NCBI RefSeq assembly: GCF_030028105.1 | Contig: NC_092381.1 | Location: 81,184,505 to 81,248,504, forward strand | From: Mobula birostris | Taxonomy: Eukaryota | DNA: 64,000 bases | Direction: 5' to 3' | Shown: positions 1,721 through 59,839 of the stretch, in pieces | Position numbering within the stretch: position 1 is the first letter of the stretch | Layout: the number at the start of each line of letters is the position of its first letter | Notes under the pieces: generated by a model | The model's input: only the letters and a program-made list of their open reading frames with translations | What the model was told of the DNA's origin: nothing | Databases searched by the model: none | Translations under genes and position numbers: made by a program

Positions 1721-2520
1721 GAAGGGGTGTTTGACTGACCTATTTGAGACAGAATGGACTGCAAATTAATTTGCACTCTCCCAAAATAATCAGCGCAATG
1801 ATGTTCAAACTCATATTGGCATGGAGTGAAGCAATTTTCAGCAAATTTTGAGCTAGCTTGGCGCTGGTTAGTGGCATCAACTGTTCACGGCGGACAAGAT
1901 TTTCATGTTTACAAGTGTTGTTTGTCCAGCGTAAAGTGTCCGAGTAGTACAAGGCCCGGAATTTTTCAAGCACATTCAATAAATACTGACTGTCGTAACT
2001 CATGCAACACAAGTACATTTTGCAAAGGAAGCCTTAAAATAGAGGGAAAGGGTCATTCACATTCAAACCACTTTTATCATCTGACTGCTGCATTCTATAT
2101 ATGACAGCACATTCTTGCATGGTGGCACAGATGGCTGAGCTGCTGTTTTAGAGCTCCAGAGACCGGGATTCAATCCTGACCTCTGGCGTTATCAGCATGC
2201 CCTTCATCAGGACTCAGAGGGGCCTCAACTCAAACATTGACTGTCCAATTCTCACCATTAACAGTGCCTGACCTGCTGAATTCCTCCAGCATTTTTTGTG
2301 TTGCTTCAAAAAAATATACACACTGGTCACATTGAAGACTGACCCTTTTTCACACCATCAAATCCTTCTATTCTAATGTCCATCTACCTCAACCCGATCC
2401 TCTTCTACCTGAATGATGTGGATCAGCAAAAGATGTCTCCATAGGGACAACATCACAGGATGTGTAAAAAGGGCTCAGAACACAACACCCCATGGACCAA
2501 GGGAGGCAGACTCAGACTCA

Positions 2521-2719: not shown

Positions 2720-2859
2720 AGGCAGACTCAGAGGTGCATTGTTTACCTGGGCTGCACGCCCATAACTGCAACCTTCATACAGACTTGCACAGACACCTGT
2801 GTGAGTTTCACAGTCAAAGTCAAAGACACCCTCACTCACAGCCTCAGGCTCTGATCTGT

Positions 2860-3690
2860 TATTCTGCCTTATTCCATTGACCCACACCTGGACCACAGCC
2901 CTCCATATCCCTCCCATCCATGTATCTATCAAATTTCTCTTAAACGCTGCAATCAAACCCACATCCACCACCTCTGCTGGCACATCATCCCACTCTTGTT
3001 CCACCTGGTGACTGAAGACGCTCCCCCTCAGGTTCCCCTCAAATATTTCACCTTTCACCCTTAACCTATAAACTCTAGTTTTAGTCTCACCCAACATCAG
3101 TGGAAAACGCCTGCTGGCATTTACCGTATCTATACCCCTCATAATTTTGTATACCTCTATCAAGTCTCCCATCATTCTCCTATACTCCAGGGAATTCTCC
3201 TGACTTATTCAGCCCTTCTCTATAACTCAGGTCCTCTTGTCCCAGCAACATCCTTATAAATTTTCTCTGGACTCTTTCAATCTTTTTGATAGCTGTCCTG
3301 TAGGTACAGTAGATGACCAGAACTGCCTTCTAAATTTGACCTCACCAACATCTTACTCAACTTCAACATAACATCCCAACTCCTGTACTCAATACTTTGA
3401 TTTATGAAGGCCAATGAGTCATCAGCTCTCTTAATTACCGTATCTATCAGTGATGGCACTTTCAAAGAATTACAGATCTGCATTCACAGATCCCTTTGTT
3501 CTACTGCACTCCTCAATACCCTACTGTTCACTGTGCAGGTTCTACCCTGGTTTGGCCTTCCAATGCAACACCTTGCACTTGTCTGTATTAAATTCATTTT
3601 GCCATTTTTTAGCCAGTCCAAATCTCACTGTAAGCTTTGTTATCTTTTTTTTGCTGTTTACGCCTCCAATCTTGGTGTCATCCGCTAAAT
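2860..3690 (-). mobile_element. CR1 (HER1-like) LINE 3' fragment
   Basis: ORF remnants GDLIEVYKIMRGID...GNLRGSVF and AFINQSIEYRSWDVMLKL are typical of the CR1 ORF2 C-terminus. Confidence 0.9.
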
Positions 3691-5609: not shown

Positions 5610-6030
5610 TAAAGATTAAAAGAGCTTTATTTCCCACACGTACATCAGAACATACATACATAAAATGCTGGAGGAAGTCAGCAGGGTGACAGCATCTATG
5701 CAAACCAGCTCTTCCAGCATTATGTGTGCGTTGCTTTGGACTTCCAGCATCTGTAGGTTTTCTTGTGTTTGTAAAACCTACAGTGAAATGCCTCATCTGT
5801 GGCAAGTCAATCCAGTGAGGATTGTACTTGGGGCAGCCTGCAAATGTTGCCATGCATCTGGCACTGATACAGCATGCCCACGACTCACTAACCCGAATTC
5901 GTACGTCTTTGGAGCCAGTTGGTGACCAGGAGAACATACAGACTGTCTCCAGACAGTGGCAGGAATCAAACCCTCATTAGTTATCAATGGCACCGTGAAG
6001 TGACTGCACTAACGGCTAACTACTGTGCTG
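5610..6030 (-). mobile_element. SINE with a Rex1-type tail, interrupted by a fold-back Penelope fragment (~5650-5772)
   Basis: Tail shared with 32050-32190 and 39300-39420. The internal inverted arms are aaaatgctggagg and ccagcatt. Confidence 0.55.
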
Positions 6031-8540: not shown

Positions 8541-8793
8541 TATCAGGGACTCTCCATTGGGTTGAAATACAAATCAAGGCCTTATGTGCCCCTTAAGGTC
8601 GATGAGAGAAAAACCCTCTCCATAGATGCTACCCGATCTGCTGAGCCCCTCCAGCATTTTGTGTGTATTGCTCTGGATTTTCAGCATCTGCAGAATCCCT
8701 TGTGAGAAAAATGTCACAAGACAAATGTTCCAAGAAGAGCAGGTATATTCTCCCTATTGACCAGGCCACTCTTCATCCTACAACCAACATTAA

Positions 8794-9749: not shown

Positions 9750-12632
9750 CTTTTTATACACACTTTGAAAGGGAGAATAAAATTATAGCTACGAGGATCC
9801 CAGTGACCCTGTGATCTCTGTCTCAAAGGCCAAGGTCAGATTGTCTATCAAGAGAGTGAACCTTCACAAGGTGACAGGCTCCGATGGTGTGCCTGGTAGG
9901 GCTCTGAAAACCTGTGCCAACCAACTGGCAGGAGTGTGTGTTCAAAGACGTTTTCAATCTCTCACTGCCACAGTCATAAGTTCTACCTGCTTCAAGTGGG
10001 CACCAATCATACCAGTGCCCAATATGAGCAAGGTGAGTCTCCAGAGGGTTCTCGTGCTGTGGAAGACGTCCTGCCTTGTCCCTGTGCCGAAGACGCCGCG
10101 CCCAAGTGGCTTCAATGACTATAGACCGGTGGCTCTGACCTCCCACATCATGAAGACCCGGGAGAGACTTGTTCTGGAGCTGCTCCGGCCTATGGTCAGG
10201 CCACACTTAGATCCCCTCCAGTTCGCCTACCAGCCCCGACTAGGAGTTGAGGATGCCATCGTCTACCTGCTGAACCGTGTTTACACCCACCTGGACAAGC
10301 CAGCGAGCACTGTGAGGGTCATGTTTTTTGACTTCTCCAGTGCATTCACCACCATTCACCCTGCTCTGCTGGGGGAGAAGCTGACAGCGATGCAGGTGGA
10401 TGCTTTCCTGGAGTCATGGATTCTTGATTACCTGACTGGCAGACCACAGTACGTGTGCTTGCAACACTGTGTGTCCGACAGAGTGATCAGCAGCACTGGG
10501 GCTCCACAGGGGGCTGTCTTGTCTCCCTTTCTCTTCACCATCTACACCCTGGACTTCAACTACCGCACAGAATCTTGCCATCTTCAGAAGTTTTCGGATG
10601 ACTCTGCCATAGTTGGATGCATCAGCAAGGGAGATGAGGCTGAGTACAGGGCTACTGTGGGAAACTTTGTCACATGGTGTGAGCAGAATTATCTGCAGCT
10701 TAATGTGAAAAAGACTAAGGAGCTGGTGGTGGACTTGAGGAGGGCTAAGGCACCGGTGACCCCTGTTTCCATCCAGGAGGTCAGTGTGGATGTGGTGGAG
10801 TATTACAACTACCTGGGGATACGAATCGACAATAGACTGGACTGGTCAAAGAACACTGAGGCTGTCTACAAGAAGGGTCAGAGCCGACTCTATTTCCTGA
10901 GGAGACTGAGGTCCTTTAACATCTGTCGGACGATGCTGAGGATGTCCTACGAGTCCGTGGTGGCCAGTGCTATCATGTTTGCTGTTGTGTGCTGGGGCAG
11001 CAGACACCAACAGAATCAACAAACTCATTTATAATGCCAGTGATGCTGTGGGGATGGAACTGGACTCTCTGACGGTGGTGGCTGAAAAGAGGATGCTGTC
11101 CAAGTTGCATGCCATCTTGGGCAATGTCTCCCAACCATTACATAATGTACTTGTTGGGGACAGGAGTACATTCAGCCAGAGACTCATTCCACCGAGATGC
11201 AACACTGAGCGCCATAGGGAGTCATTCCTGTCTGTGGCCATCAAACTTTACAACTCCTCCCTTGGAGGGTCAGACACTCTGAGCCAACAGGCTGGTCCTG
11301 GACTTATTTCCATCTGGCATAATTTACATATTATTATTTAATTATTTATGGTTTTATATTGCTATATTTATACTCTATTCTTGGTTGGTGCAATTGTAAC
11401 GATACCCAATTTCCCTCGGGATCAATAATGTATGTCTATCTATCTATCTTAACAACTATTATCCAGTACTACTCACACCTACAGTGATGAAGAGCTTTAA
11501 GAGGTTGGTTATGGCCAGAACCAACTCTTTCCTCTAAAAGGAGCTGGACCCACTGCAATTTGCTTACCATCACAATAGTTCTACAGCAGACGTGATCTCA
11601 TTGGCTCTTCATGTGGCCTTGCATCACCTGGAAAATACTAATACTTATGTTGCTGTTTATCGACCGGAGCTCAGGAGTTAATATAGTCATTTCCATAGGT
11701 CTGATCAAAAAGCTCCAAACCCTGGGCTTCTGTACCTCCCTCTGCAACTGGATCCTCAACTTCCTCACTGGAACACGACAGTCTGTGTGAATCAGTAATA
11801 ACATCTCCACCTCGCTGACAATTAACACTGCACACCTCAAGGATATGTGCTTAGTCCACTGCTCTGCTCTCTCTACACCCAAAACTGCGTGGCTAGGCAC
11901 GGCTCAAATGCCACCTATAAACTTGCAGATGACACAACAATTGCTGGAAGAATTTCAGGTGGTAATGAGAAGGCATACAGAAACAAGACAGATCAGCTGG
12001 TTGAGTGGTATCGCAGCAACAACCTTGCACTCAACGTCAGTAAGGCCAAAGAACTGATTGCGGTCTTCAGAAAAGATAAGATGAGGGAGCACACACCAGT
12101 CCTCATTGAGGGATCAGAAGTGGAAAGAGTGAGTAACTTCAAATTACTGGGTGTCAACATCTCTGAGGACTTATCCTGGGCCCAACTGTTCGATGCAGTT
12201 GTAAGTAAAGCACAAGAGCAGCTATATTTCATTTGCAGTTTCAGGAGATTCGGTACGTCACCAAAGACACGCAGGTTTCTGCAGGTGGACTGTGAAGAGC
12301 ACTCTAACTGGCTGCATCACTGTCTGGTACAGAAGGCGGGGGGCATTGCAAAGGACCAAAATAGGCTGTAGAGAGTTGTTAACTCAGTCAGCGCCATCAT
12401 CCAGCCCAGCCTCCCCAGCATCCTGGATATCTTCAAGGAGAGGTGCCTCAAAAAGGCGGCATTAAGCACCTCTATTACCAGGGAGATGCTTTTTTCTCAT
12501 TTCTACCATCAAACAGGAGGTACGGGAGCCCGAAGGCACACACTCAATGATTCAGGAACAGCTTCATCCTTCTGCCATCTGATTTCTGAATAGACTTTGA
12601 ACCCATGAACACTACCTCCCTACTTTTTTTTG
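9750..12632 (+). mobile_element. Rex1/Babar-like LINE (family A, decayed RT), interrupted by a younger LINE at ~10034-11448
   Basis: KVTGSDGVPGRALKTCANQLAGV...IIPVP resumes after the insert as LNNYYPVLLT...LDPLQFAY...KLADDTT, followed by a 3'UTR. Confidence 0.85.
10034..11448 (+). mobile_element. 5'-truncated, younger RT-encoding LINE (family B, Rex1/L2-group) with a (TATC)n tail
   Basis: Intact RT motifs [41 protein letters not shown] and YLGI. Near-identical to 34162-34850. Confidence 0.9.
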
Positions 12633-12636
12633 CACT

Positions 12637-12860
12637 GGAACTCAGCAGGCCAGACAGCATCCATGGAAAAGAGTATAGTCATTTTGGGCCGAAACCCTTC
12701 TAACTCTGACCCCTCATCTTCTTTTCTCCAGTCCTGATGAAGGTCTCAGCCTGAAGCTTGGACTGGACTCTTTTTCCATAGATGCTGCCTGGCCTGCTGA
12801 GTTCCTCCAGCACTTTGTGTGTGTTGCTTCGATTTTCAACATCTGCAGATTTTCTCTTTG
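12637..12860 (+). mobile_element. Fold-back Penelope-derived element with a decayed hammerhead motif at 12728-12766
   Basis: Inverted arms ggaactcagcaggccag / ctggcctgctgagttcc. Motif reads ccagtc-ctgatga-agg..cct-gaag-cttg-gactgg. Confidence 0.75.
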
Positions 12861-20815: not shown

Positions 20816-21746
20816 ACACTGTGCTTTGTTTCACCTTGAATATATAAATCAGACTTCAAATATGCATGTATAAACAGTAACTAGTAATCCACCAACTAAA
20901 GAAACATTTTGACAACAAATTCAAGTTAACGGAGAATAAATAACATAGCATTTTTTTAACATTACTTTCCCTTTCAGCCCGAGATTACAGAAAACCTCTT
21001 ACAAACAAGAAGGTGAACTATCCCCCAAGTAAAGTCTCAGACCACACCTCTCTGTCTCAAGATTGGGGATTGAAAGAGAGAACTGTAAGCAAAAACAAAG
21101 ATAAGACTTTGCAGCTCTATGAAGCATCAGAGAAAGTCCTTGGGAGAGGCAACTTTAGAAAAACATCTAGTTACCTATTAGAGCCTGAAGTAATCCTGAT
21201 AATAGTCCAGGAGAGCAGTGTTTTGAGAAGGCAAATTTGATCTAATTTAAATAATTGCCTGCTACTGGGCTTCATCAGGGAGATGAATGCTTGTTAAGAC
21301 AGTATCATCACTCAACAGCAATAGTAACATGACTAATGCCTAGGTATCAACACTTATTGTTATATAACTAAGTAAATACTAAACAAATCATCATATGCAT
21401 AATTTATGATCAGAACATGAATTACACTAGTATTAAACAAATGGTCTGTAATGCAATAGCTAAAATAACAGTGATGTCATTAATAAATTCCAGTATTGAA
21501 TTTGAGTTTACAATTATAGCTTTGAAATGTACATCAACAAATCACTTTTCCACTACTACAATTGCAGGCACATACCTAATATGGTAGGTAAACCCAGAAT
21601 TATTTTAGGTTAGTGATATTCAAAAGGTCAGACCTCTAAGTATCTCCAGCATTTATTGGAGGGCCTTCAACCCAAAATATTACCCTGCTTCTCTTCTCAC
21701 AGACATCACCTAATCTGCTGAGTGCTTCTGGCAGTTTCTGCTATTA

Positions 21747-21870
21747 CACACAAAATGTTGGAGGAAAGCAGGTCAGGCAGAAGGGTCCTGGTCCAAAACA
21801 TCGACTGTTTATTCATTTCAATAGTGTTGCTTTGGATTTCCAGCATCTGTAGGCTTTCACGTGTTTATAT
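21747..21870 (+). mobile_element. Short fold-back Penelope-derived insertion with a 12-bp TSD
   Basis: TSD tttctgctatta (21735-21746) / tttccgctatta (21871-21882). Confidence 0.65.
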
Positions 21871-22171
21871 TTTCCGCTATTATTTTAGGTTTTCCGTGCA
21901 AAACATTCAGACAAGATGGCCAACATAGAAGAATCACTCCACATTAGTCATACATTGAGCCAACTAAACCAAATTTGATCAGCCGTGGTAATTAAGGTCA
22001 TCAAAAGGTTCTGTACAGCAGAAAATCAGTTTTTCCTTATGTGACTGCCACTTTGCTTATGTGAACGGAATGCTAGTGCTGCTAGGAACTGCAATGATTA
22101 ATTCCCCAATGCAGTGGGCAGATTTATTCAAAAGGAGAATAATCAGAGAACTTGCCATTAAAAACCTCGTA

Positions 22172-23515: not shown

Positions 23516-24705
23516 CTGTGACTGGTGGTATGCCACAGGAAATGGTGCTGAGTATGTTGTTGTTATGCATCTATATTAACAATCTGGATGATAGTGTGGT
23601 AAACTGGACCAACAAGTTTCTGGATGACCAAGATTGGGGATCTTATGGACAGTGAGGAAGATTATCAAAGCTTGTAGCAGGATCTGGGCCAGTTGGAAAA
23701 GTGGGCTGAAAAATGACAGATGGAATTTAATTCAGACAAGCCTGAGGTGTTTCACTTTTGGGAGGACCAACCAAGGTAGGTCTTATATAAGTGAGTGTTT
23801 GGACATTGAGGTGTAAAGTAGAACAGAGGGATCTGGGAATATAGATCAATAATTCCTTGAAAGTGGTGGAGAGAGATGGGCTTATAAAGAAAGCTTTTGG
23901 CATATTGGCCTTCATAAATAAAATGTATTGAGTACAGGAGTTGGGATGTTATATTGAAGTTGTATAGGACATTGGTGAGGCCTAATTTGAAATATAGTGA
24001 GCAGTTTTGGTTACCTTCCTACAGTAAAGATATAAATAAGATTGATAGAGAACAGAGACTTGAGGACCTCAGTTATAGAGAAAGTTTGACTAGGTTACGA
24101 CTTTATTCCCTGGAATGCAGAAGATTGAGGTGAGACTTGACAGGGGTATACAAAATGATGAGGGTATAGATACGGCAAATGCAAACAAGCTTCTTCCACT
24201 GAGCAACAAACACAAGATGCTGGAGCAGCTCAGCAGGTCAGGCAGTGTCTCTGAAAAAGAATAAACAGTCAATGTTTCAAGCCGAGACCCTTCATCAGTT
24301 TACTCTTTTCCATAGATGCCGCCTGACTTGCTGAGTTCCTCCGGCATTACGTTTGGGTCGCTTGCATTTCCAGCATCCGCAGATTTTCTCGTCTTTTTCC
24401 ACCGAGGTTTGGTGAGGCTACAACTAAATGTCGTGGGTTAAGGGTGAAAGGTGAAATATTTGAGGGAAACATGAGTTGGAACATCTTCACTCAGAGGTGG
24501 TGAGTGTGTAGAATGAGCTGCTGGTTCAAGTGGTGGATCCATGGTCGATTTCAACATCGAAGTGAAATTCAGATTGGTACATGGATGGCAGGGATATGGA
24601 GGGTGAAGGTCTGGTTGCAGATCAATGGGACTAGGCAGATTAATAGTTCAGCGTGGACTAGATTGGCTGAGGTTTCTGTGTTGTAGTGTTCTATGACTCT
24701 ATGAC
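23515..24705 (+). mobile_element. CR1 LINE RT to 3' end (decayed), with a Penelope fold-back insert
   Basis: Remnants VTGGMPQ..YINNLD..KFLDDQ, ending in the CR1 tail ttctatgactctatg. Confidence 0.85.
24204..24392 (+). mobile_element. Fold-back Penelope-derived element with a 14-bp TSD; hammerhead-like core on the minus strand at 24266-24298
   Basis: TSD cttcttccactgag (24190-24203) / ctttttccaccgag (24393-24406). Minus strand reads ctgatga-agggtctcggctt-gaaacattgactg. Confidence 0.8.
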
Positions 24706-27320: not shown

Positions 27321-28484
27321 AAAAAGGACATATACTGTATCTTCATTTGCGTGGCAAGTCAAGACCAAGAGCAGAGAAAATCATTAAGAATTCAGAGCAA
27401 ACTTGTTTACTAAGAGAGTGGATAGAATGTGAAACTTAGCATTACGTCTAGTTGAGAAAACACCAGATTAGAAAAAGTGAGAGGAAAATATGATGAAGGA
27501 ACAACAAGTTGAAGAGCTGAGTGTGGAGTATGAACATTAGAATGGAACTTCTAGCTGACTGTTCTCTACATTGGCTGTACTATTTATGCAACCATGTCTT
27601 CTCCAATCACTCATCCCCAATGCAAAATAGGGCTGTATGAAATATCTGACCACTTCGGTGCAGAACATTCACTACATCCAAGCAACTACCACAGTCACCT
27701 TGAAATGAAGAGAGATATGCAATGAAGAATTTGTTTGGAATTGAACTGGCACTGTTAATGATGGTAATAACTTGGTGCTCTTGACTGATTAATCAGTACC
27801 ATAGCAAAAGCACGCAGCTAGAAAGTCTCTGGACCTGCTAGACACCAATTAAGGCCACGCACACAATGCTGAGGTTAACATTATTGTCCACGAGAAAGGT
27901 CACTTCACTTGGCTCAGATCTCTATAGGCATTGCCAGTGTGATATATTCATAGAACCTATCAACCGTGGCTCAAAAACAGCCAGCTTTATCTATGGTGAA
28001 GGAAAATAAAATCATGAAACATTCCCTGAACAATTTAGCAATGCACATTTGCTACCTTTCAGTTAGATTTTTCCCCCAACTAAATTCAATGTTTCTTTTG
28101 CATCTCAGACCTCATACTTCTGTGTGTTTCTGTTATGTCAGTTTGTGCTCCCAACGTGTTCTGGGACTTAAGAGAATTTATTAGAAGCTGCCGAGTACTG
28201 GCCAGCAACGTTCTTTGATCTTACTAGACCGTGCATTGATCTGGTGGTAATGGCCATTCCAATGTGTTTTATTTTAACACAGTGCAGATTAATATGTGGT
28301 GCACAGCTCAGTGTTTCGATCAACCAGAGGTCCGCAACTCAATCACAAATCTCAGTGAAATGTGTTGCACCATTTGTGCATAATCCTGGTTTCAGAAAGC
28401 CAAACAGTTTACATTAACTCTTCCCCTTCCAGCCTAATACAAGGGATGCTTAAAGCAACCTACACATTAATGTTCGAAGGATAA

Positions 28485-29290
28485 ACACAGGAGATTCCGC
28501 AGGTGTTGAAAATCGTGAACAACACACACAAAATGCTGGAGGAGATCAGCAGGTCAGGTGACATCTATGGCGGGGAATAAACAGTTGATATTTCAGGTTG
28601 AGATCCTTCATGAAGTCTAGAAAGCAAGGAAGCAGAAGGCAGGGTAAGGAAGTGACGGAAGGGGAAGGAGAACAAACCAGCAGATGATAGGTTGGACTAA
28701 GCGAAGGGTAAGGTAGGTGGGAGCTGGGTGGGGGAATCGGAAGGAAATGAGAAGCTGGGAGGGGATAGGTGGAAGAGATAAAGGGCTGGAGAAGAAAGAA
28801 TCTGATAGGAGAGGACAATGGACCATGGAAGGAAGGGAATGAAGGGGGGAACCAGAAAGAGGTATGAGGCAGGTAAGAAGGGGTAAGAGGGTAAGCAGAA
28901 TAGGGAATGGACAAAGAGAAAAAGTGTGAGGGAGAAAAAATTATCGTAAGTTGGAAAAAAACAATGTTTATGCCATCAGGTTGGAGGCTACCCAGACGGA
29001 ATATGATGTGTTGCTCCTTCAACCTGAGTGTGGCCTCATCACGGCAGTAGAGGTGGCTGTAGACATGTCAGAATGGGAGTACAAAGTCAAACTGAAATGG
29101 GTAGCTACCGAGAGAACCTGCCTTTTGTGGCGGACGAAGCAAAGGTGCTCAACAAAGCAATCCCCTCATCTGCATTGGGTGTCCCATGGAGGAGGCCGCA
29201 CTACAAGCACGAGATACGAGGTGAAGTGTTGGCTCAAGTGCAAGGACTGTTTAGGGCCCTGAATGGTGGTAAGTGAGGAGGGTCAGGGGC
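28485..29290 (-). mobile_element. Penelope-like element 3' part (GIY-YIG endonuclease C-terminus plus pLTR)
   Basis: Minus-strand remnants GDCFVEHLCFVRHKRQVLSVATHFSLTLYSHSDMS and EQHIIFRLGSLQPDGINI. The terminus matches the fold-back minis. Confidence 0.85.
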
Positions 29291-30296
29291 AGCAAGCCTA
29301 GCAATACAAGATTTAGAGCATTTTTGATCAAGTGGAATATTATGGTCTAACTTTAAAGTGCTAATTTCCAGAATGATTCATGTGTGTCGTACAGCGTTTG
29401 AAAAATTGTGCCCAGAAGGTTTCCGAGTCACACATATGCCAACAAAGATACAGATATGGTGCCTAAGTTTGAAATATATACCCTGCTCTGTTTTTTACTT
29501 CATTATGAAACAGGTCGCTCTTGGTCTGCAATAATATATCGTCCATACCTCCACACTTCGGTGCAGTAAACATTGACAATGGTGTTGCAATGGAAAGTCT
29601 GAACCAACAGTAAAGGTGATATGGATGAAAAACTAATACAGGAGGATTCTTTATATACCTTGTATATAAATATACACACACCACAGAAAGTATTGTACAT
29701 CCAGGCAGAATTGGCCATTTCCAGTTTGGATCTTAAAACTATAACATGGTACTGTACCATCGGTTGAAAGCGATACCCCCCCCCCCCCCACCGTACCATG
29801 ATGCATTGATGTGATGCTGACTAGGAAGGACAAAACACCGCCACCTCTCACCCAACTTTACTGATACAACCAATGACAAATAGCACTTGGTGAACTAAGG
29901 TCATCCTCATGTAATCAAGCACCAGTAAGTACAGCTTTCAGCAGATGACCTCCTCCCATTCTGTCTTGGAAGCTGCATTGTAAATCAGACATCTAAATTA
30001 ACAGCAATCACGTTAAATGAAGCTACAGGAGGAGCTAACAATCTATTCACAATGGAACTGATATTTCCTTAGATTAACAGCTGAGATAGTAATAAACCAA
30101 CCTTCTCAGTCACACATCTGACAGCAAAGCAACAGACAAGTCTGAAAAATAACCAGAATTCTCCTATTCTGTTCTCTGTTTCACCATAAAACAGGCTGTC
30201 CTTGGTCTGCAATAATATAACATCCTTGCTTCAGTACCCAACAATATTGCAATGGAAAGGAAGCATCAATGGGGAATGATTAGTGACCGAGGATGA

Positions 30297-32190: not shown

Positions 32191-32348
32191 TGCTGGGAGT
32201 GAACCTTGCCCAAGTCCATGGGACTGAAAGGTCAGAGTCAGGCAACAGGACAGTTCCCTCCACTGAACTGTGAGTGTGATTCAGAGTGTCAGTCTGACTA
32301 AAGAACTGCTGCATGCATATATTTCTTTGCAATAACCCTAAGTACTTA

Positions 32349-32875
32349 TTGCACCATGCAAAAGACTTAGGCACATATACAGTATATAGATAGCTAAGTG
32401 CCTAAGAATTTGCACAGTACAGTAGAAACTTTATGAATTACATTGTACTGCTGCGGCAAAAAAACAAATTTCGCAGCATAGCTGAGTGATGATAAACCTG
32501 ATTCTGAAATGGGTCTCCATTGTGGACTGAGAGTGGGAAGGGGGCAGGGAGAGGGGGAATCAAGGTTGGGAAAAGGGGAAGGGAGTGAGAAGCATCAGAG
32601 AGGCAGCCTGTAATGAACAATAAACCAACTGTTGGAATCAAATAACCTTGCCTGGTGTTTCAGATCTGGGTGTGTCTGCACCCACGCCAACCCCGCCCCT
32701 GGCACTCCATCTCTGCCACCTGTCCCACACCCCTCCTGCAGTGCTCCAAACAACATCCTTTGCTTCTACCAGATTTACAAACTTGCTCTCACTCCACATT
32801 GACAAATACAGGACCGTGCAAAGGTCTTAGGCTCTCCAGCTATATACATGTGCCTAAGACTTTTTCATAGTACTG
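32349..32875. mobile_element. Composite Tc1/mariner-type MITE: two inverted ~70-bp palindromic minis flanking cargo
   Basis: tgcaaaagacttaggcac..gtgcctaagaatttgcacagta at 32349-32424 and an inverted copy at ~32808-32875. TA flanks. Confidence 0.7.
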
Positions 32876-33354
32876 TATGTTTTGAAATAATCAGTATGAA
32901 TGGCTTGCAAATTTCTCTGCTCTTGATATACTTGACAATAGTAAAACCTAACCAATACAAGGAGAGAATCTGGACACAAGAGAATGCTGTAATGAGATTT
33001 ATCTTGCTGGAGTCAGACAGAAATGGTTTGCCCAAGTAACAGAAGGTACAGGGTAATGTGCCAACTACTACACCGTGAGAACCTGCAGTGTTCTCTAGAG
33101 AATAAAACCGCTAATTTTAATAATAAATGGTGTGAGGCTGTGAGGAAGGTTTGCTCCCTCAAGTCAAAGCAATGCAGCTGGATATAGCGATCTCCTGTTG
33201 CATTTTTATAAACCAGGTATCTGATTTATCTGATATGTTTTATCACTGCGACCAATGATAAAACATTTTTGGTGCTTTATTAGAAAAATGTACAGTAAAG
33301 TTTTCAAATTAAAATACAATTAATTTCTACTCATTAACTGTAATCATTATAAGT

Positions 33355-34161: not shown

Positions 34162-34850
34162 CATAGTCATAGTCATACTTTACTGATCCCGGGGGAAATT
34201 TGGTTTTGTTACAGTTGCACCAACCAAGAACAGAGTATAAATATAGCCATATAAAACCATAAATAATTAAATAGTAATATGTAAATTATGCCAGTAAATT
34301 ATGAAATCAGTCCAGGACCAGCCTATTGGCTCAGGGTGTCCGACCCTCCAAGGGAGGAGTTGTAAAGTTTGATGGCCACAGGCAGGAATGACTTCCTATG
34401 ACGCTCTGTGCTGCATCTCAGTGGAATGAGTCTCTGGCTGAATGTACTCCTGTGCCCACCCAGTACATTATGTGGTGGATGGGAGACATTGTCCAAGATG
34501 GCATGCAATTTGGACAGCATCCTCTTTTCAGCCACCACCGTCAGAGAGTCCAGTTCCATCCCCACAACATCACTGGCCTTACGAATGAGTTTGTTGATTC
34601 TGTTGGTGTCTGCTACCCTCAGCCTGCTGCCCCAGCACACAACAGCAAACATGATAGCACTGGCCACCACAGACTCGTAGAACATCCTCAGCATCGTCTG
34701 ACAGATGTTAAAGGACCTCAGTCTCCTCAGGAAATAGAGACGGCTCTGACCCTTCTTGTAGACAGCCTCAGTGTTCATAGACCAGTCCAGTTTACTGTCA
34801 ATTCGTATCCCCAGGTATTTGTAGTCCTCCACCATGTCCACACTGACACA
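34162..34850 (-). mobile_element. LINE family B 3' fragment with a (GACTAT)n tail
   Basis: ORF 34323-34895 (YKYLGIRID...YESVVASAIMFAVVCWG) is near-identical to 10780-11448. Confidence 0.9.
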
Positions 34851-50200: not shown

Positions 50201-53200
50201 TGATGATCTCACTAATGTAGCTGAAGCATTACCTCTCTACCTTTGCATTCAGTTAGCCCAGCAATAAACTGCAATAGTCTGTCAGCTTTGCCAACTACGT
50301 GTAGTGCCTGCTACTATTCTTCCACGACTAGTGCACTGATATACCCAGATCCCTCTCTCTATCTTGGAGCACAGTGGTTGCAGTTGCTCAATGAGTCTCC
50401 AAAAACCTGCTCTTTTCATTTTAAAGCAGGCACAGCATAGCAGGTCATTCAGCAACCGTGGCAATTTACTGGTTCCACTCTTGGACCCTTCTCTGTGTTT
50501 ATCCTCACCATATATCTATCCATTTGCTTCTTAAAGGACTCAATGAAACCTGCAAGCAATGAAGGTATTCCAAACACACACTCACTGCACAATAATGTTT
50601 TTCCTCATATCACGTGGACTTACTCTTCTCTTTTATTTCACACTTATGACCTCTAGTTCTCGGCCTCGTCTCACCATGGGAACAGTCTCCCACCATTCAC
50701 TCTGTGCAACCCCTTTATCATTGATAAACTCCTATTATGTCTTCCCTCTGCTTTCCCTGAGGAAATCAATTTCAGCATGTTCAACCTATCTCAGTCACTG
50801 CAGCCCCTCATCCCAGGAATCACTCCGGTGAATTGTCTCTGGGTCCTCTCCAGTGCCCCCACAGCCTTTCTATTTGTGATGACCAAAAATGCTTCAGCAG
50901 AATTTGGAACAGGGCTTTATAAAAGTTCAATATGACTTCCTTGCTTTATATACTGTATACGTCAACCCATAAAACATAACTAACCATTTTCTCAAAATGA
51001 CCTGAACTTCCACCAACTTGTGCACCCATTTTCCTGGCTCCTTCCATTCCTGCGCCCCTTTCAGAACTGCACCCTTTGTTCAATATTGCTTCTCTTTATT
51101 CTTCCTATCAGAAAGCATCACCTCACATTTCTCTGGATTAATCCTCATCTGCAACTCACCTTCCTATTGCATCAGCCTGTTTATACCCTGTTGTAATTTA
51201 TCACCAGCATCGCAGTTCAAAGCACTGCCAAATTTTGTTTCATCCAATTGTGGCTTGCACCCCAAATGTACAAACGTTTGTAGGTCATTAGTATAGACAG
51301 AGAAAAATGATCCAAACACCAACCCCAGGGGATTGCCACTATTCACCTTCCTCTGGTCTGAAAAACAACCATTCGTCACAGTCCTCTGCTGCCTGCTAAT
51401 AGCTATCTTGCATTCTTAATTACCTGCAAAATCTGCATACCACTCTGCATTTGAAACCATGTCATAACAGCTGAGGATTTAAATCAGAGCAAAAGCTACA
51501 TATGGAATGAATAGGTATATCCATAAAACTGCTATATTGCCATAAAATCCTGCCTAGTTCACTAATTCATCTCCAAGAGAGAGAATTTACCACTTTTACA
51601 AGGTCTGGCTCTGCTTCTCCCTCCAATTTCATGACTGTTGTATTCAATTCTCCCAGTAATAAATAATATATATCTTTTAAATTTCTCTAATTATTTAACA
51701 CAAAACATAGAACAGTACAGCATAGGACCAGGACTTTTGGCTCATGATGTTGTTAAACTGATGACACCTAATAAATCTAATCCTTCCTGCCTGCACAAGG
51801 CAAGACCCCTCCGGTCTCTGCATATTCATATGCCTAAGAGCCTCTTAAATGCCTCTGTTGTATCTGCCTCCAACTCATTTCAGGCACCCACCACTCTCTG
51901 TGTAAAATAAAAACTTGCCCTGCACACCTTTAAACTTTTGAGCAACACACACAAAATGTTGGAGAAACTCAGCAAGTCAGGCAACACCTATAGAGGGAAA
52001 TTTAGTCGACACTTTGGGCCGAAATTATTCATCAGGACTGCTCCAGAGGAAAACCTCTTAATTATTTGCTATCTCTACATACCAAGCATTTGCAAATTGT
52101 ACACGGTGACCCAGATCCCTCTGCAGATCAAAGCTCTCACATCTCAATATAATAAGCTTCTTTATTATTCATCATCATTAAAATGGTCAATTTCATACTT
52201 TCTACGTAACGATCTCTTTGCTGAATCATTGCCTGCTCAGTTAACGGATCAGTATCCCTTCTCACCTTCTACTGGTCTCCTCACAAATCACGTTACCATC
52301 TTTCTTTGCATCATCAGCAAGATTTAAGCAACCACACCACTGGCACCATAATCTAAATTATTCATACAAATTAGAAATAGTTGAGGCCCAGCACCAATTC
52401 CTGAAGATCAGTACTTGTTAGTGATTGCTAACTAGAAAATATTAATTTATGCCAAACTTCTATCCACACCAATATATTACATCGAAATATAGAGATCTAC
52501 AGCACATTACAGGCCCTTCGGCCCACAATGTTGTGCTGACCACGTAACCTACTCTAGAAACTGCCTAGGATTACCTTACCACATAGCCCTCTATTTTACT
52601 AAGCCCCAAGTACCTGTCTGAGAGTCGCTTAAGTGTCCCGATTGTATTCACCTCTACCACTGTCACTGGCAATGCATGCCACACACCCACCACTCTCTGT
52701 GTGAAAAACTTACCTCTGACATCCCCCTTGTACCTACTTCCAAGCATCTTAAAACTATGCCCCTCATAGTAGTCATTTCAGCCCTGGGAAAAAGCCTCTG
52801 GCTATCCACATGATCAATGCCTCTCATCATCTTATACACCCCTATCAGGTCACCTCTCATCCTCCATCGCTCCAAGGAGAAAAGGCCAAGTTCACTCAAC
52901 CTATTCTCATAAGGCATGCTCTCCAATCCAGGCAACATCCAGAGAATCAGCTTCATTACTCTCTAAAACAAAATTTGAAACAGCACTTTATTAAATGTCT
53001 TCTGAAAATATACATATATACATCAACTGGTCAAGTTTTGTCTATAGCAAATATTACTTCTTCAACGAACAACCGCAGATGACATCCTTCTGCCTTTATT
53101 AGTCAAGGCATCATGAATCAGGAAGTTACTATATGTTGTAGCTTTATGACACTCTGGTAAGGCAACTTCTGGAGTATTGTATTCATTTCTGCTCACCCCA

Positions 53201-55505: not shown

Positions 55506-55529
55506 GACCATTACATACACGTTTAAATA

Positions 55530-55972
55530 CAAGGGGTGATTGATAAGTTTATGGCCTAAGGTAGAGGGAGTCAATTTTAGAAAACCTAGCACATTTACTT
55601 TTCCACATAGTCCCCTCCTACATTTACACACCTAGTCCAGCGGTTGTGGAGTATACGGATCCCTTCTTTGAAGAAGTCAGCATCTTGGACCTCCAGAAAG
55701 TGGTCCACAGCAGGGGTGATTGATAAGTCAGTGGCCTAAGTTAGAAGGGGATGAGTTATACAGCTCTCGTTACATGCATGTGCAGTTCAACTCTTTGAGT
55801 GATTATGCAGAAAGTTTGAAGTTAATAACTCATCTCCTTCTACCTTAGGCCATGCTCCATGCTGGACTAAGTGTGTAAATGTAGGAGGGGACTATGTTGA
55901 AAAATAAATGTGCTAGGTTTTCTAAAGTTGACTCCTTCTACCTTAGGCTACGAACTTATCAATCACCCCTCG
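55530..55972. mobile_element. Mariner-derived MITE with ~110-bp inverted ends
   Basis: TA|caaggggtgattgataagttt...aacttatcaatcacccctcg|TA. Each arm carries the mariner C-terminal remnant WTKCVNVGGDYVEK. Confidence 0.88.
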
Positions 55973-56049
55973 TATAACGGTAGCACCTTTTGTTGATCCC
56001 GTAGAAGCCGTTGCGACCACTCGTGCCACCATCTTGCCAGAGTGATTTG

Positions 56050-59003: not shown

Positions 59004-59272
59004 CAAGCACATACTAAGAGGCCATTCAAATCTGACCGCATAATAATGGCCCATCCAATGCTGTACTATTCATTGTTCTGAATCTGAAACTTGCTGCCAG
59101 ACGTGGTGTTGGAATCAAATACATTTAAGAAGCATTTAGACAGACACAAATGCAATACTGTGCAAAAGCCTTTGGTGAAAAAATACATAGCTAGGGTGCC
59201 TGAGGCTTTTGCACAGTACTTTATATAGGTTAAAGTAGGAAGGTGGTTGGGAAACAGAAATAAGACTACTTA

Positions 59273-59495
59273 AAATCACAAACAAGAGAAAACCTGCAGA
59301 TGCTGGAAATCCAAGCAACACACACAAAACGCTGGAGGAACTTAGCAGGCCAGCCAGCATCTATGGAAAAGAGTTCAGTTGATGTTTCGGGCCAAGACCC
59401 TTCCTGATGAGGGTTTTCGGCCTGAAACGTCAACTGCACTCTTTACCATAGGTGCAGCCTGGCCTGCTGAGTTCTTCAGCATTTTGTGTGTGTTG
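59273..59495 (-). mobile_element. Fold-back Penelope-derived element with a 13-bp TSD
   Basis: TSD ataagactactta (59260-59272) / ataagagtactta (59496-59508). Inverted arms of ~85 bp at 59316-59400 and 59411-59495. Confidence 0.85.
59404..59431 (+). ncRNA. Minimal type-I hammerhead ribozyme core (Penelope-type); 5' strand of stem I lost
   Basis: CTGATGA-ggg ttttcgg cct-GAAAC-GTC keeps the conserved core, a 3-bp stem II and a palindromic ACGT stem III. Confidence 0.6.
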
Positions 59496-59839
59496 ATAAG
59501 AGTACTTAGCTTTGTATTAGCTCAGTAGTATTCCAGTAACTGGAAAGACATAATATACAATACTGTGCAAAAGTCTTAGGCACCCTAGCAATATGTGCCT
59601 GAGGATAAAAGGACAAGGCATGAAAGGGTATGGTCCCAATTGCAGGCAAATGAGATTAGTGCAGGTGGGCATAAAGGGGGTTGAAGGGCCCACTTCTGTG
59701 TGATTGAACTCTATGAGTGACGGAGTTACCCAGCAAATTGCTGATTGATCCAGATTAGAAACGTTCCCAGTTCTATCATGATTTTCATTGCAGTAGTATA
59801 GTACAGTATATAGTATAGAATAGTAGTATAGTAACTACA

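What the first reader, a model, noticed from the sequence alone, without database searches (positions are those of the whole stretch)
59260..59508. Family of hammerhead-bearing, fold-back Penelope mini-elements with 12-14 bp TSDs (retrozyme-like)
Seen: 120-225 bp non-coding inserts made of a Penelope terminus plus an inverted copy, at 5650-5772, 12637-12860, 21747-21870, 24204-24392 and 59273-59495. Three have TSDs (12, 14 and 13 bp), and single arms occur at ~2200-2310, 8610-8700 and 51941-52040. Combining copies gives cagtc-CTGATGA-agggtctcggcc(c/t)-GAAAC-GTC-gactg: stem I cagtc/gactg, a short stem II, and a loopless palindromic ACGT stem III. In several copies the inversion point lies at or beside this motif. 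A GIY-YIG-coding parent relic is at 28485-29290. Known: Penelope-like elements carry minimal type-I hammerheads thought to act as dimers. Inference: ribozyme-processed short RNAs are copied by the Penelope RT/EN into hairpin insertions, in which the antisense arm would sequester the ribozyme. No single copy here is fully intact.
Basis: partly seen in the sequence, partly recalled or inferred. Interest (0 to 1): 0.7.

Follow-up and report, generated by a model that had tools for sequence, protein, structure and literature searches.

The report
Penelope fold-back stubs at ribozyme edge
This 223-base hairpin is two back-to-back tail ends of a very abundant Penelope-type jumping gene, a layout already known for this class; its short copies stop at the front edge of a hammerhead ribozyme motif rather than at its predicted cut site, which likely means that uncut RNA beginning there is copied from both nicked DNA strands.

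Summary
Observation confirmed: 59273-59495 is a head-to-head fold-back with a 13-bp TSD; the family majority carries a minimal hammerhead (19,720 exact intact copies of one variant genome-wide); 28481-29292 is a GIY-YIG parent relic. The reading 'ribozyme-processed, retrozyme-like' fails. The units are extremely 5'-truncated insertions of a Neptune/Nematis-type Penelope element in the published layout (inverted pLTR, one-sided tail, TSD). Breakpoints are strongly non-random but sit at the 5' base of stem I (-32..-25; 22 of 50 and 33 of 85 short arms), not at the cut site (2 of 50, 3 of 85). 84 of 87 fold-backs pair one tailed with one untailed arm; arms are both short or both long (47 of 50); short pairs mostly share a haplotype; identical junctions recur independently; short and long copies share allele frequencies. 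Best reading: twin-primed, abortive copies of uncut RNA whose 5' end lies at -31 (inferred; no RNA data). Rare -31..0 stutters hint at occasional cleavage. The scan reported these patterns before at other places in this genome.

The parts
59260..59272 (.). left target-site duplication (13 bp)
   Evidence: 1 mismatch to 59496-59508
59273..59403 (-). tailed arm of the fold-back: element positions about -22..+107; 59273-59315 is the ~40-base tail
59402..59495 (+). untailed arm, element positions -29..+67; shares 2 bases (59402-59403) with the other arm
   Evidence: sequence
59404..59436 (+). degenerate minimal hammerhead: CTGATGA 59404-59410, stem II 59411-59423, GAAAC 59424-59428, GTC 59429-59431 (predicted cut after 59431); extra A lost, 5' strand of stem I missing, G+1 changed to A
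59496..59508 (.). right target-site duplication
24190..24406 (.). fold-back copy (arms -27..+70 minus, +5..+104 plus) with 14-bp TSD (24190-24203 / 24393-24406), inserted in another repeat
21733..21882 (.). three-piece fold-back copy with 14-bp TSD (21733-21746 / 21869-21882)
12637..12860 (.). fold-back copy (arms -22..+46 minus, -65..+97 plus), no convincing TSD
5646..5772 (.). short fold-back copy (arms +18..+72 minus, +41..+104 plus), no hammerhead, no convincing TSD
2200..2310 (+). decayed copy: 15-base inverted remnant ending at -31 (2200-2214) followed by a sense arm
   Evidence: sequence
8615..8704 (+). single tailed arm (+12..+101), possible 11-bp TSD
51940..52040 (-). single untailed arm starting at -32
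28481..29292 (-). 5'-truncated parent relic: broken GIY-YIG endonuclease region (29291-28957), 3' UTR, hammerhead remnant, tail

Best explanation
The hairpins are very short, dead head-to-head insertions of the end of a Neptune/Nematis-type Penelope-like retrotransposon, likely made when both nicked target strands prime reverse transcription at two fixed internal RNA sites (about +67 and +103) on an uncut RNA that likely begins at the 5' base of hammerhead stem I (-31). Shown: the layout (TSD mostly 13-15 bp, one tailed and one untailed arm), the pile-up of 5' ends at -32..-25 with a sharp upstream edge at A-31 in both single-arm and fold-back copies, the both-short/both-long pairing, shared haplotype of short arm pairs, independent recurrence of junctions. 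Inferred: staggered nicks by the GIY-YIG domain; two primings by one complex; run-off at a physical RNA 5' end (transcription start or an end trimmed back to the hairpin); joining of the two cDNA ends by 0-8 shared bases or short filler; if only one strand primes, a ~100- or ~135-base single arm results; read-through RNAs with long upstream sequence give the long fold-backs. The ribozyme is a passenger of the parent's pLTR; cleavage is not needed for these inserts.
For: Same layout in young copies of all sizes, e.g. a 2.8-kb fold-back with RT (YIDD) and endonuclease, arms 97.7% alike; full-length partial tandems at 95-99% identity. 5' ends: 22 of 50 young arms within -60..+30 lie in -32..-25 (P 4e-11 vs uniform), 2 in -2..+5, 3 in -40..-33; 33 of 85 and 3 of 85 in a 624-kb position-chosen sample, none of the 33 with a pyrimidine tract upstream. 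7 of the 22 are single arms. Genome-wide junction counts: 809 at -31, 321 at +1, 156 at control -12. Base at -32 in -31 junctions is the element's T in 30 of 100, about chance. 84 of 87 fold-backs tailed on one side only; 32 both short, 15 both long, 3 mixed of 50 (Fisher 9e-10). Short pairs differ at 11 of 117 polymorphic sites vs 34% on re-pairing. Two loci repeat blocks that restart bluntly at -31/-30 three times (L331, L287). Best-supported upstream loose ends in one other organism's contigs also fall at -31/-30 (X1; weak). Literature: two internal RT starts bound the tail, both strands are cut and extended, ribozyme mutants do not impair insertion (PMC11167929).
Against: No RNA data: no listed holder is on record as RNA and only contigs were laid. 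No excess of a cap-derived G at -32 (G 39, A 34, C 27 of 100; 19 of the G explained by shared bases with the partner arm). In D. virilis the start site lies 46+75 bases upstream of helix I, not at it (PMC2377424, PMC4209133). +1 junctions are twice the -12 control, although that pattern has no CpG in its fixed part and 45 of 100 listed are three microhomology joins; a modest excess at the cut site is not excluded. Long pairs are only partly concordant (22% and 14% discordant vs 45% and 42%), so 'one template' is not general. Old-subfamily edge (-32 or -31) is unresolved. The 99 young copies come from the first 7.5 Mb of one contig.
Confidence: 0.65

Rival explanations
1. Same double priming, but -31 is a barrier on a longer RNA, not its end: RT is halted by protein bound just upstream of the hairpin, e.g. 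on the polypyrimidine tract plus AG that looks like a splice acceptor at -31/-30, or by the element's own protein.
For: A pyrimidine tract and AG precede the motif in all main subfamilies; in D. virilis an intron ends at helix I (PMC4209133); no cap-G signal; half of young arms do run far past -31 (49 of 99).
Against: A stochastic barrier should give many short/long pairs; 3 of 50 seen. Blunt restarts at -31 in L331 and L287 fit a free end. No copy joined to an upstream exon at -29 or -33 among the 99 and 30 junctions read.
Confidence: 0.2
2. One priming only; the cDNA snaps back on itself at the hammerhead's self-complementary bases and copies itself, giving the inverted arm (self-priming as proposed for rotifer Penelope, PMC3846280).
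For: Short pairs mostly share a haplotype; many junctions use stem-I or palindrome microhomology.
Against: Arms differ at family-polymorphic sites far above mutation background: C/G at +18 in 10 of 75 pairs vs 2 of 80 and 0 of 56 at control sites; 14 of 19 long pairs differ at 2 or more such sites; about half of two-piece short junctions have filler or no overlap (17 of 29); single arms end at either +67 or +103.
Confidence: 0.07
3. One reading: hammerhead-cut short or circular RNAs form a self-propagating retrozyme-like family copied by the Penelope protein.
For: Intact motif in at least 19,720 copies; changes between subfamilies fall at tolerant positions (N7, loop II, wobble pairs); pieces spanning exactly -31/-30..0 in 2 loci (3 of 18 departures among 311 cores; one locus came from a selecting search); +1 junctions 2-fold over control.
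Against: 0 of 99 arms start at +1; not tandem; short and long copies share allele frequencies (+6 T 31/44 vs 30/49; +18 G 33/44 vs 36/49); five copies with one junction have the tail on different sides and different TSDs (L268, L269, L288, L293, L294); monomer and dimer are predicted to prefer inactive folds (dimer -19.9 vs -33.7 kcal/mol).
Confidence: 0.05
4. Ordinary random 5' truncation; the peak is an alignment artefact of subfamily-specific upstream sequence.
For: Upstream 3' UTR differs between subfamilies; one other-organism loose-end pile at -31 is of this kind (X4).
Against: The peak is sharpest in the young subfamily aligned to its own reference at 95-99% identity, with TSDs abutting -31/-30.
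Confidence: 0.03

Closest known systems
Canonical endonuclease-bearing Penelope-like element insertion: inverted 5'-truncated copy, 30-40 bp tail on one end, TSD (Pen2a_Av, PMC3846280; Fig. 2 legend of PMC8557442; passages read)
   Same: Head-to-head inverted pLTR, one-sided ~36-40 base tail, TSD, partial tandems, pLTR overlapping the ORF start region
   Different: Here both arms are cut down to 90-140 bases in a large share of events, with a fixed 5' edge; the passages read give no breakpoint peak and explain inversions by self-priming
Minimal hammerheads (min-HHR) of metazoan PLE pLTRs, incl. fish Neptune (PMC4209133, parts 1-2 of 4 read)
   Same: Type I core, extra base between 9 and 10.1, short helix I, loopless palindromic helix III; that paper already notes pairs 100-700 bp apart on opposite strands and widespread single motifs from truncated PLEs
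   Different: Helix II is 4 bp (3-4 with a G-U or shifted A-U base pair in the young subfamily), shorter than the 7-8 bp given for Schistosoma; copy number of one variant (19,720) exceeds the ~9,000 motifs given for Xenopus
Poseidon of Anolis (PAc) in vitro (PMC11167929, parts 1-2 of 4 read)
   Same: Two internal RT starts bounding the tail, both strands extended, AT-rich targets (63% AT in TSDs), uncut RNA as substrate
   Different: Different clade; the parts read do not report a fixed 5' edge or the one-tail pairing in genomic copies
Non-LTR retrozymes (PMC7229834 passages; bioRxiv 10.64898/2026.07.22.740005 part 1 of 5 and passages)
   Same: Non-coding, type I hammerhead, derived from or related to PLE pLTRs, long TSDs
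   Different: Retrozymes are head-to-tail tandems of 150-450 bp with usually canonical ribozymes and circular RNAs; these units are head-to-head, minimal-ribozyme, and form no lineage of their own
Retroviral minus-strand strong-stop DNA and L1 twin priming (recalled, no call)
   Same: Short cDNA from priming near an RNA 5' end; two target strands both used as primers
   Different: No tRNA primer or RNase H; L1 twin priming inverts non-overlapping parts, here both arms copy the same segment

Membership tests
EN+ Penelope-like element (Neptune/Nematis type) | Single ORF with RT followed by C-terminal GIY-YIG endonuclease | tested here: met
   Young copies: YIDD motif and endonuclease in one unit of 3,515 nt; Pfam GIY-YIG E 4e-4, slightly under cut-off; no Pfam hit for the partial RT; window relic matches at E 3e-27
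EN+ Penelope-like element (Neptune/Nematis type) | [quoted passage not shown] | tested here: met
   C-x4-C-x2-C motif before the GIY-YIG region
EN+ Penelope-like element (Neptune/Nematis type) | Partial tandems forming pLTRs, inverted 5' copy, one-sided tail, TSD | tested here: met
EN+ Penelope-like element (Neptune/Nematis type) | Phylogenetic placement in Neptune rather than Nematis | not tested
   no reference PLE proteins were fetched
Minimal PLE hammerhead | Core CUGANGA / GAAA / UH, extra base after A9, palindromic 15.2-16.2 without loop, helices I and II | tested here: met
   majority lines of the four largest subfamily clusters; stems I and II in predicted folds; window copies themselves are degenerate
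Minimal PLE hammerhead | Two-sided compensatory changes in the stems | tested here: inconclusive
   only one-sided or loop changes between subfamilies
Minimal PLE hammerhead | Self-cleavage as dimer or with protein | not testable with these tools
   only indirect: -31..0 pieces in 2 loci; the genome-wide test was mis-registered and is void
Non-LTR retrozyme | Head-to-tail tandem units each with a hammerhead | tested here: not met
   head-to-head pairs and single arms; short tandem stutters only in L331, L287, L232
Non-LTR retrozyme | Own non-autonomous lineage amplified from a unit | tested here: not met
   shared allele frequencies with long copies; independent recurrence of junctions
Non-LTR retrozyme | Abundant circular RNA | not testable with these tools
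   only contigs of runs not on record as RNA

The most novel reading that the evidence does not exclude
These stubs are Penelope's 'strong-stop' products: the element's RNA begins at the first base pair of the hammerhead, a lopsided protein dimer primes both target strands 100 and 135 bases downstream of that end on the same leader, and copies that fail to jump to a longer template are sealed as hairpins. The rare blocks spanning exactly -31..0 are then the 5' cleavage product of that RNA, a fossil record that the minimal ribozyme does cut in the germ line. Some 10^5 genomic events would map start, priming sites and cut site of a Penelope RNA at base resolution.
Probability: 0.3. Interest if true: 0.7.

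Novelty: new member of a known kind. Interest (0 to 1): 0.42.

Why it matters
The Penelope transposition cycle and the job of its hammerhead are open questions; the cited papers call the origin of tandem/inverted structures undefined and found no RNA ends at the cut site. This genome holds roughly 8 x 10^5 arms and 10^5 mini fold-backs (rough, from 87 arms and 14 pairs in 450 kb), with young full-length tandems. Their ends give three exact, testable coordinates (-31, +67, +103) and argue that uncut RNA is the main template in vivo. Practically, such hairpins can be mistaken for MITEs, microRNA precursors (Rfam miRNA models score them) or retrozymes.

Tried and rejected
Rfam: no hammerhead family in window or three loci with intact motifs; uninformative for a motif without loop III. 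Cap-derived G at -32: not seen (TSD-resolved single arms show added G in 3 and added C in 4 cases). Spliced templates: no upstream exon joined at -29/-33 in the junctions read; no GT..AG joint among the 15 best joints shown (100 more not shown). Clean strand-transfer signature in long pairs (shared below -31, independent above): not found, both regions partly shared. Stem-I-defined versus fixed-base edge in old subfamilies: too few cases (14 hits; 9). Genome-wide test of pieces ending at the cut site: one search was shifted by one base, returned mostly point mutants, void; no own-genome search was left to repeat it. Energies were mis-registered and redone. Expression: no RNA holder listed; contigs cannot show starts, circles or editing. 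Literature searches showed no paper describing a breakpoint peak at the hammerhead's 5' edge; subscription papers (Arkhipova 2006, Evgen'ev and Arkhipova 2005, Pyatkov 2004), Repbase entries and all supplements were not seen and may bear on this.

Full report
Numbering throughout: 0 is C17, the last base before the predicted hammerhead cut; +1 is the first base after it; C3 is -27; the 5' strand of stem I is -32..-28.

1. Observation. The focal unit 59273-59495 is a head-to-head pair of arms, 82% alike, between 13-bp TSDs with one mismatch. The minus arm covers about -22..+107 and carries a ~40-base extension that the plus arm (-29..+67) lacks. The relic at 28481-29292 matches the endonuclease of a young copy (tblastn E 3e-27). 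The hammerhead is the majority line of 29 look-alike loci (30 fetched, one duplicate left out) and of the four largest clusters among 377 arms; no window copy is intact. One variant of the 37-base motif occurs 19,720 times exactly in the 4.0-Gb genome, and a 36-base marker of the youngest subfamily 33,988 times.

2. The parent. Searches from the relic and from a young copy gave a 3,515-nt unit with one long ORF (RT with YIDD, a C-x4-C-x2-C linker, GIY-YIG domain), then a pyrimidine-rich 3' UTR, the hammerhead, and two 3' end points near +67 and +103. Of 30 loci holding the 5' part of the ORF, 16 have a same-strand pLTR directly upstream, from -21 to beyond -879: the partial tandems typical of Penelope-like elements. 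The linker motif places it with Neptune/Nematis by the definition in PMC8557442 (passages); no tree was built. PMC3846280 and PMC8557442 (passages) describe exactly this insertion layout: inverted 5'-truncated copy, 30-40 bp tail at one end, TSD. PMC4209133 (parts 1-2 of 4) describes the minimal hammerhead and already notes opposite-strand pairs 100-700 bp apart. The fold-back and the ribozyme are therefore known in kind.

3. Breakpoints. Two samples not chosen by breakpoint were used. (a) The window plus 56 stretches of 10 kb (one all N): 128 arms reaching +20 after dropping low-identity satellite hits, 125 with flank; of 85 with 5' ends in -60..+30, 33 lie in -32..-25 and 3 in -2..+5. (b) The first 99 of the 100 listed places of the young marker, all on contig C1: 49 arms run past -60; of the other 50, 22 end in -32..-25 (7 at -31), 3 in -40..-33, 2 in -2..+5, none at +1. 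Seven of the 22 are single arms, most with TSDs, so the edge does not depend on arm-arm joining. Genome-wide patterns demanding mismatches upstream gave 809 junctions at -31, 321 at +1 and 156 at -12; the fixed parts hold 3, 0 and 2 CpG, so the counts are only roughly comparable, and 45 of the 100 listed +1 hits are three recurrent joins or deletions through GAC(T) microhomology. With the base at -32 left free, the element's T appears in 30 of 100, about chance: the edge is at A-31. A cut RNA would give +1; the bulk of templates was uncut, in line with the in vitro result that ribozyme mutants insert normally (PMC11167929, parts 1-2 of 4).

4. How the hairpin forms. Among 87 young fold-backs, 84 have one tailed and one untailed arm, matching the two RT starts and two-strand extension reported for PAc. 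TSDs of 9 or more bases flank 66 of 85, mode 13-15, against 2 of 85 controls. In the 50 not selected by junction, 32 have two short arms, 15 two long, 3 mixed (Fisher 9e-10; arms longer than the fetched flank are missed). Short pairs differ at 11 of 117 polymorphic sites (34% on re-pairing), long pairs at 42 of 187 upstream and 8 of 56 downstream (45%, 42%), mixed pairs at 7 of 13. So short pairs mostly come from one template or source, long pairs often from two; pure snap-back cannot explain C/G differences at +18 in 10 of 75 pairs. Of 29 two-piece short junctions, 12 share 1-8 bases, 3 are blunt, 14 have filler or unaligned bases.

5. Not a family of its own. Short and long copies have the same variants at +6, +18 and in the tail. 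Five copies with one and the same junction carry the tail on either side and have different TSDs. The minis are thus made afresh each time; the retrozyme features (tandem units, own lineage; PMC7229834 passages; bioRxiv 2026.07.22.740005 part 1 and passages) are not met.

6. What -31 is. Options: transcription start (the context fits an initiator-like YYANWYY with A at -31 in both main subfamilies; consensus recalled), an end trimmed to the base of the hairpin that the motif is predicted to form, or a barrier such as a splice-acceptor complex. For a physical end: the both-short pairing and two loci whose blocks restart at -31/-30 three times (L331, unit -31..0; L287, unit -31..+41). Against a capped start: no G excess, and the D. 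virilis start lies about 120 bases further upstream (PMC2377424 passages). Unresolved without RNA.

7. Does it cut? Earlier notes of this scan pointed to rare pieces ending at the cut site. In stored loci, 18 of 311 cores lack the normal downstream sequence; 3 of these break at 0 or +1, in two loci (L232, L331; the latter from a selecting search), the rest are spread from -9 to +30. That fits the 5' cleavage product of a -31 RNA but is too few, and L287 shows the same stutter at a non-ribozyme site. My genome-wide test was void.

8. Verdict. Real, abundant, and a new member of a known kind. The fixed edge at the ribozyme's first base pair, the one-tail rule and the both-short/both-long pairing were not found in the searches run and make the Penelope cycle testable. 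The scan has reported the edge and the one-tail rule at other places of this genome; my numbers were obtained before reading those notes, except section 7.

Noticed in passing
window 59157-59226 and 59553-59592; also 32344-32379, 32806-32880: Short palindromic repeats with ends like ACTGTGCAAAAG flank the focal element on both sides and recur at 32 kb; resemble a miniature Tc1/mariner-type DNA transposon (label recalled).
   Followed up: no
window 55527-55975: Another inverted-repeat element, arms 115 nt and 92% complementary, with internal partial repeats; looks like a rearranged mariner-type MITE (label recalled).
   Followed up: partly
window 2851-3614 vs 23704-24651: The 24204 fold-back interrupts another dispersed repeat whose uninterrupted relative lies at 2851-3614, which could serve as an empty-site check.
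   Followed up: no
window 10780-11439 vs 34169-34847: A 680-base repeat pair at 90% identity in opposite orientation.
   Followed up: no
L032:8158-10000 and L033:1-6716 (about 19 kb downstream of the window): A pyrimidine/purine-rich tandem array of about 8.5 kb sits inside a Penelope copy's 3' UTR, between its -341..+107 and -739..-177 parts.
   Followed up: no
L298, L302, L310 and similar: 13 of 100 listed hits are the same precise deletion of the hammerhead core through a 3-base repeat, as expected if RT skips the predicted hairpin.
   Followed up: partly
L255 and L256: Two neighbouring insertions share the same internal deletion (-154 joined to -119), pointing to one source copy.
   Followed up: no
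one search list: Two recurrent junction types appear mostly on the minus strand in the listed rows although totals are balanced (401 vs 408); unexplained, possibly a search artefact.
   Followed up: no
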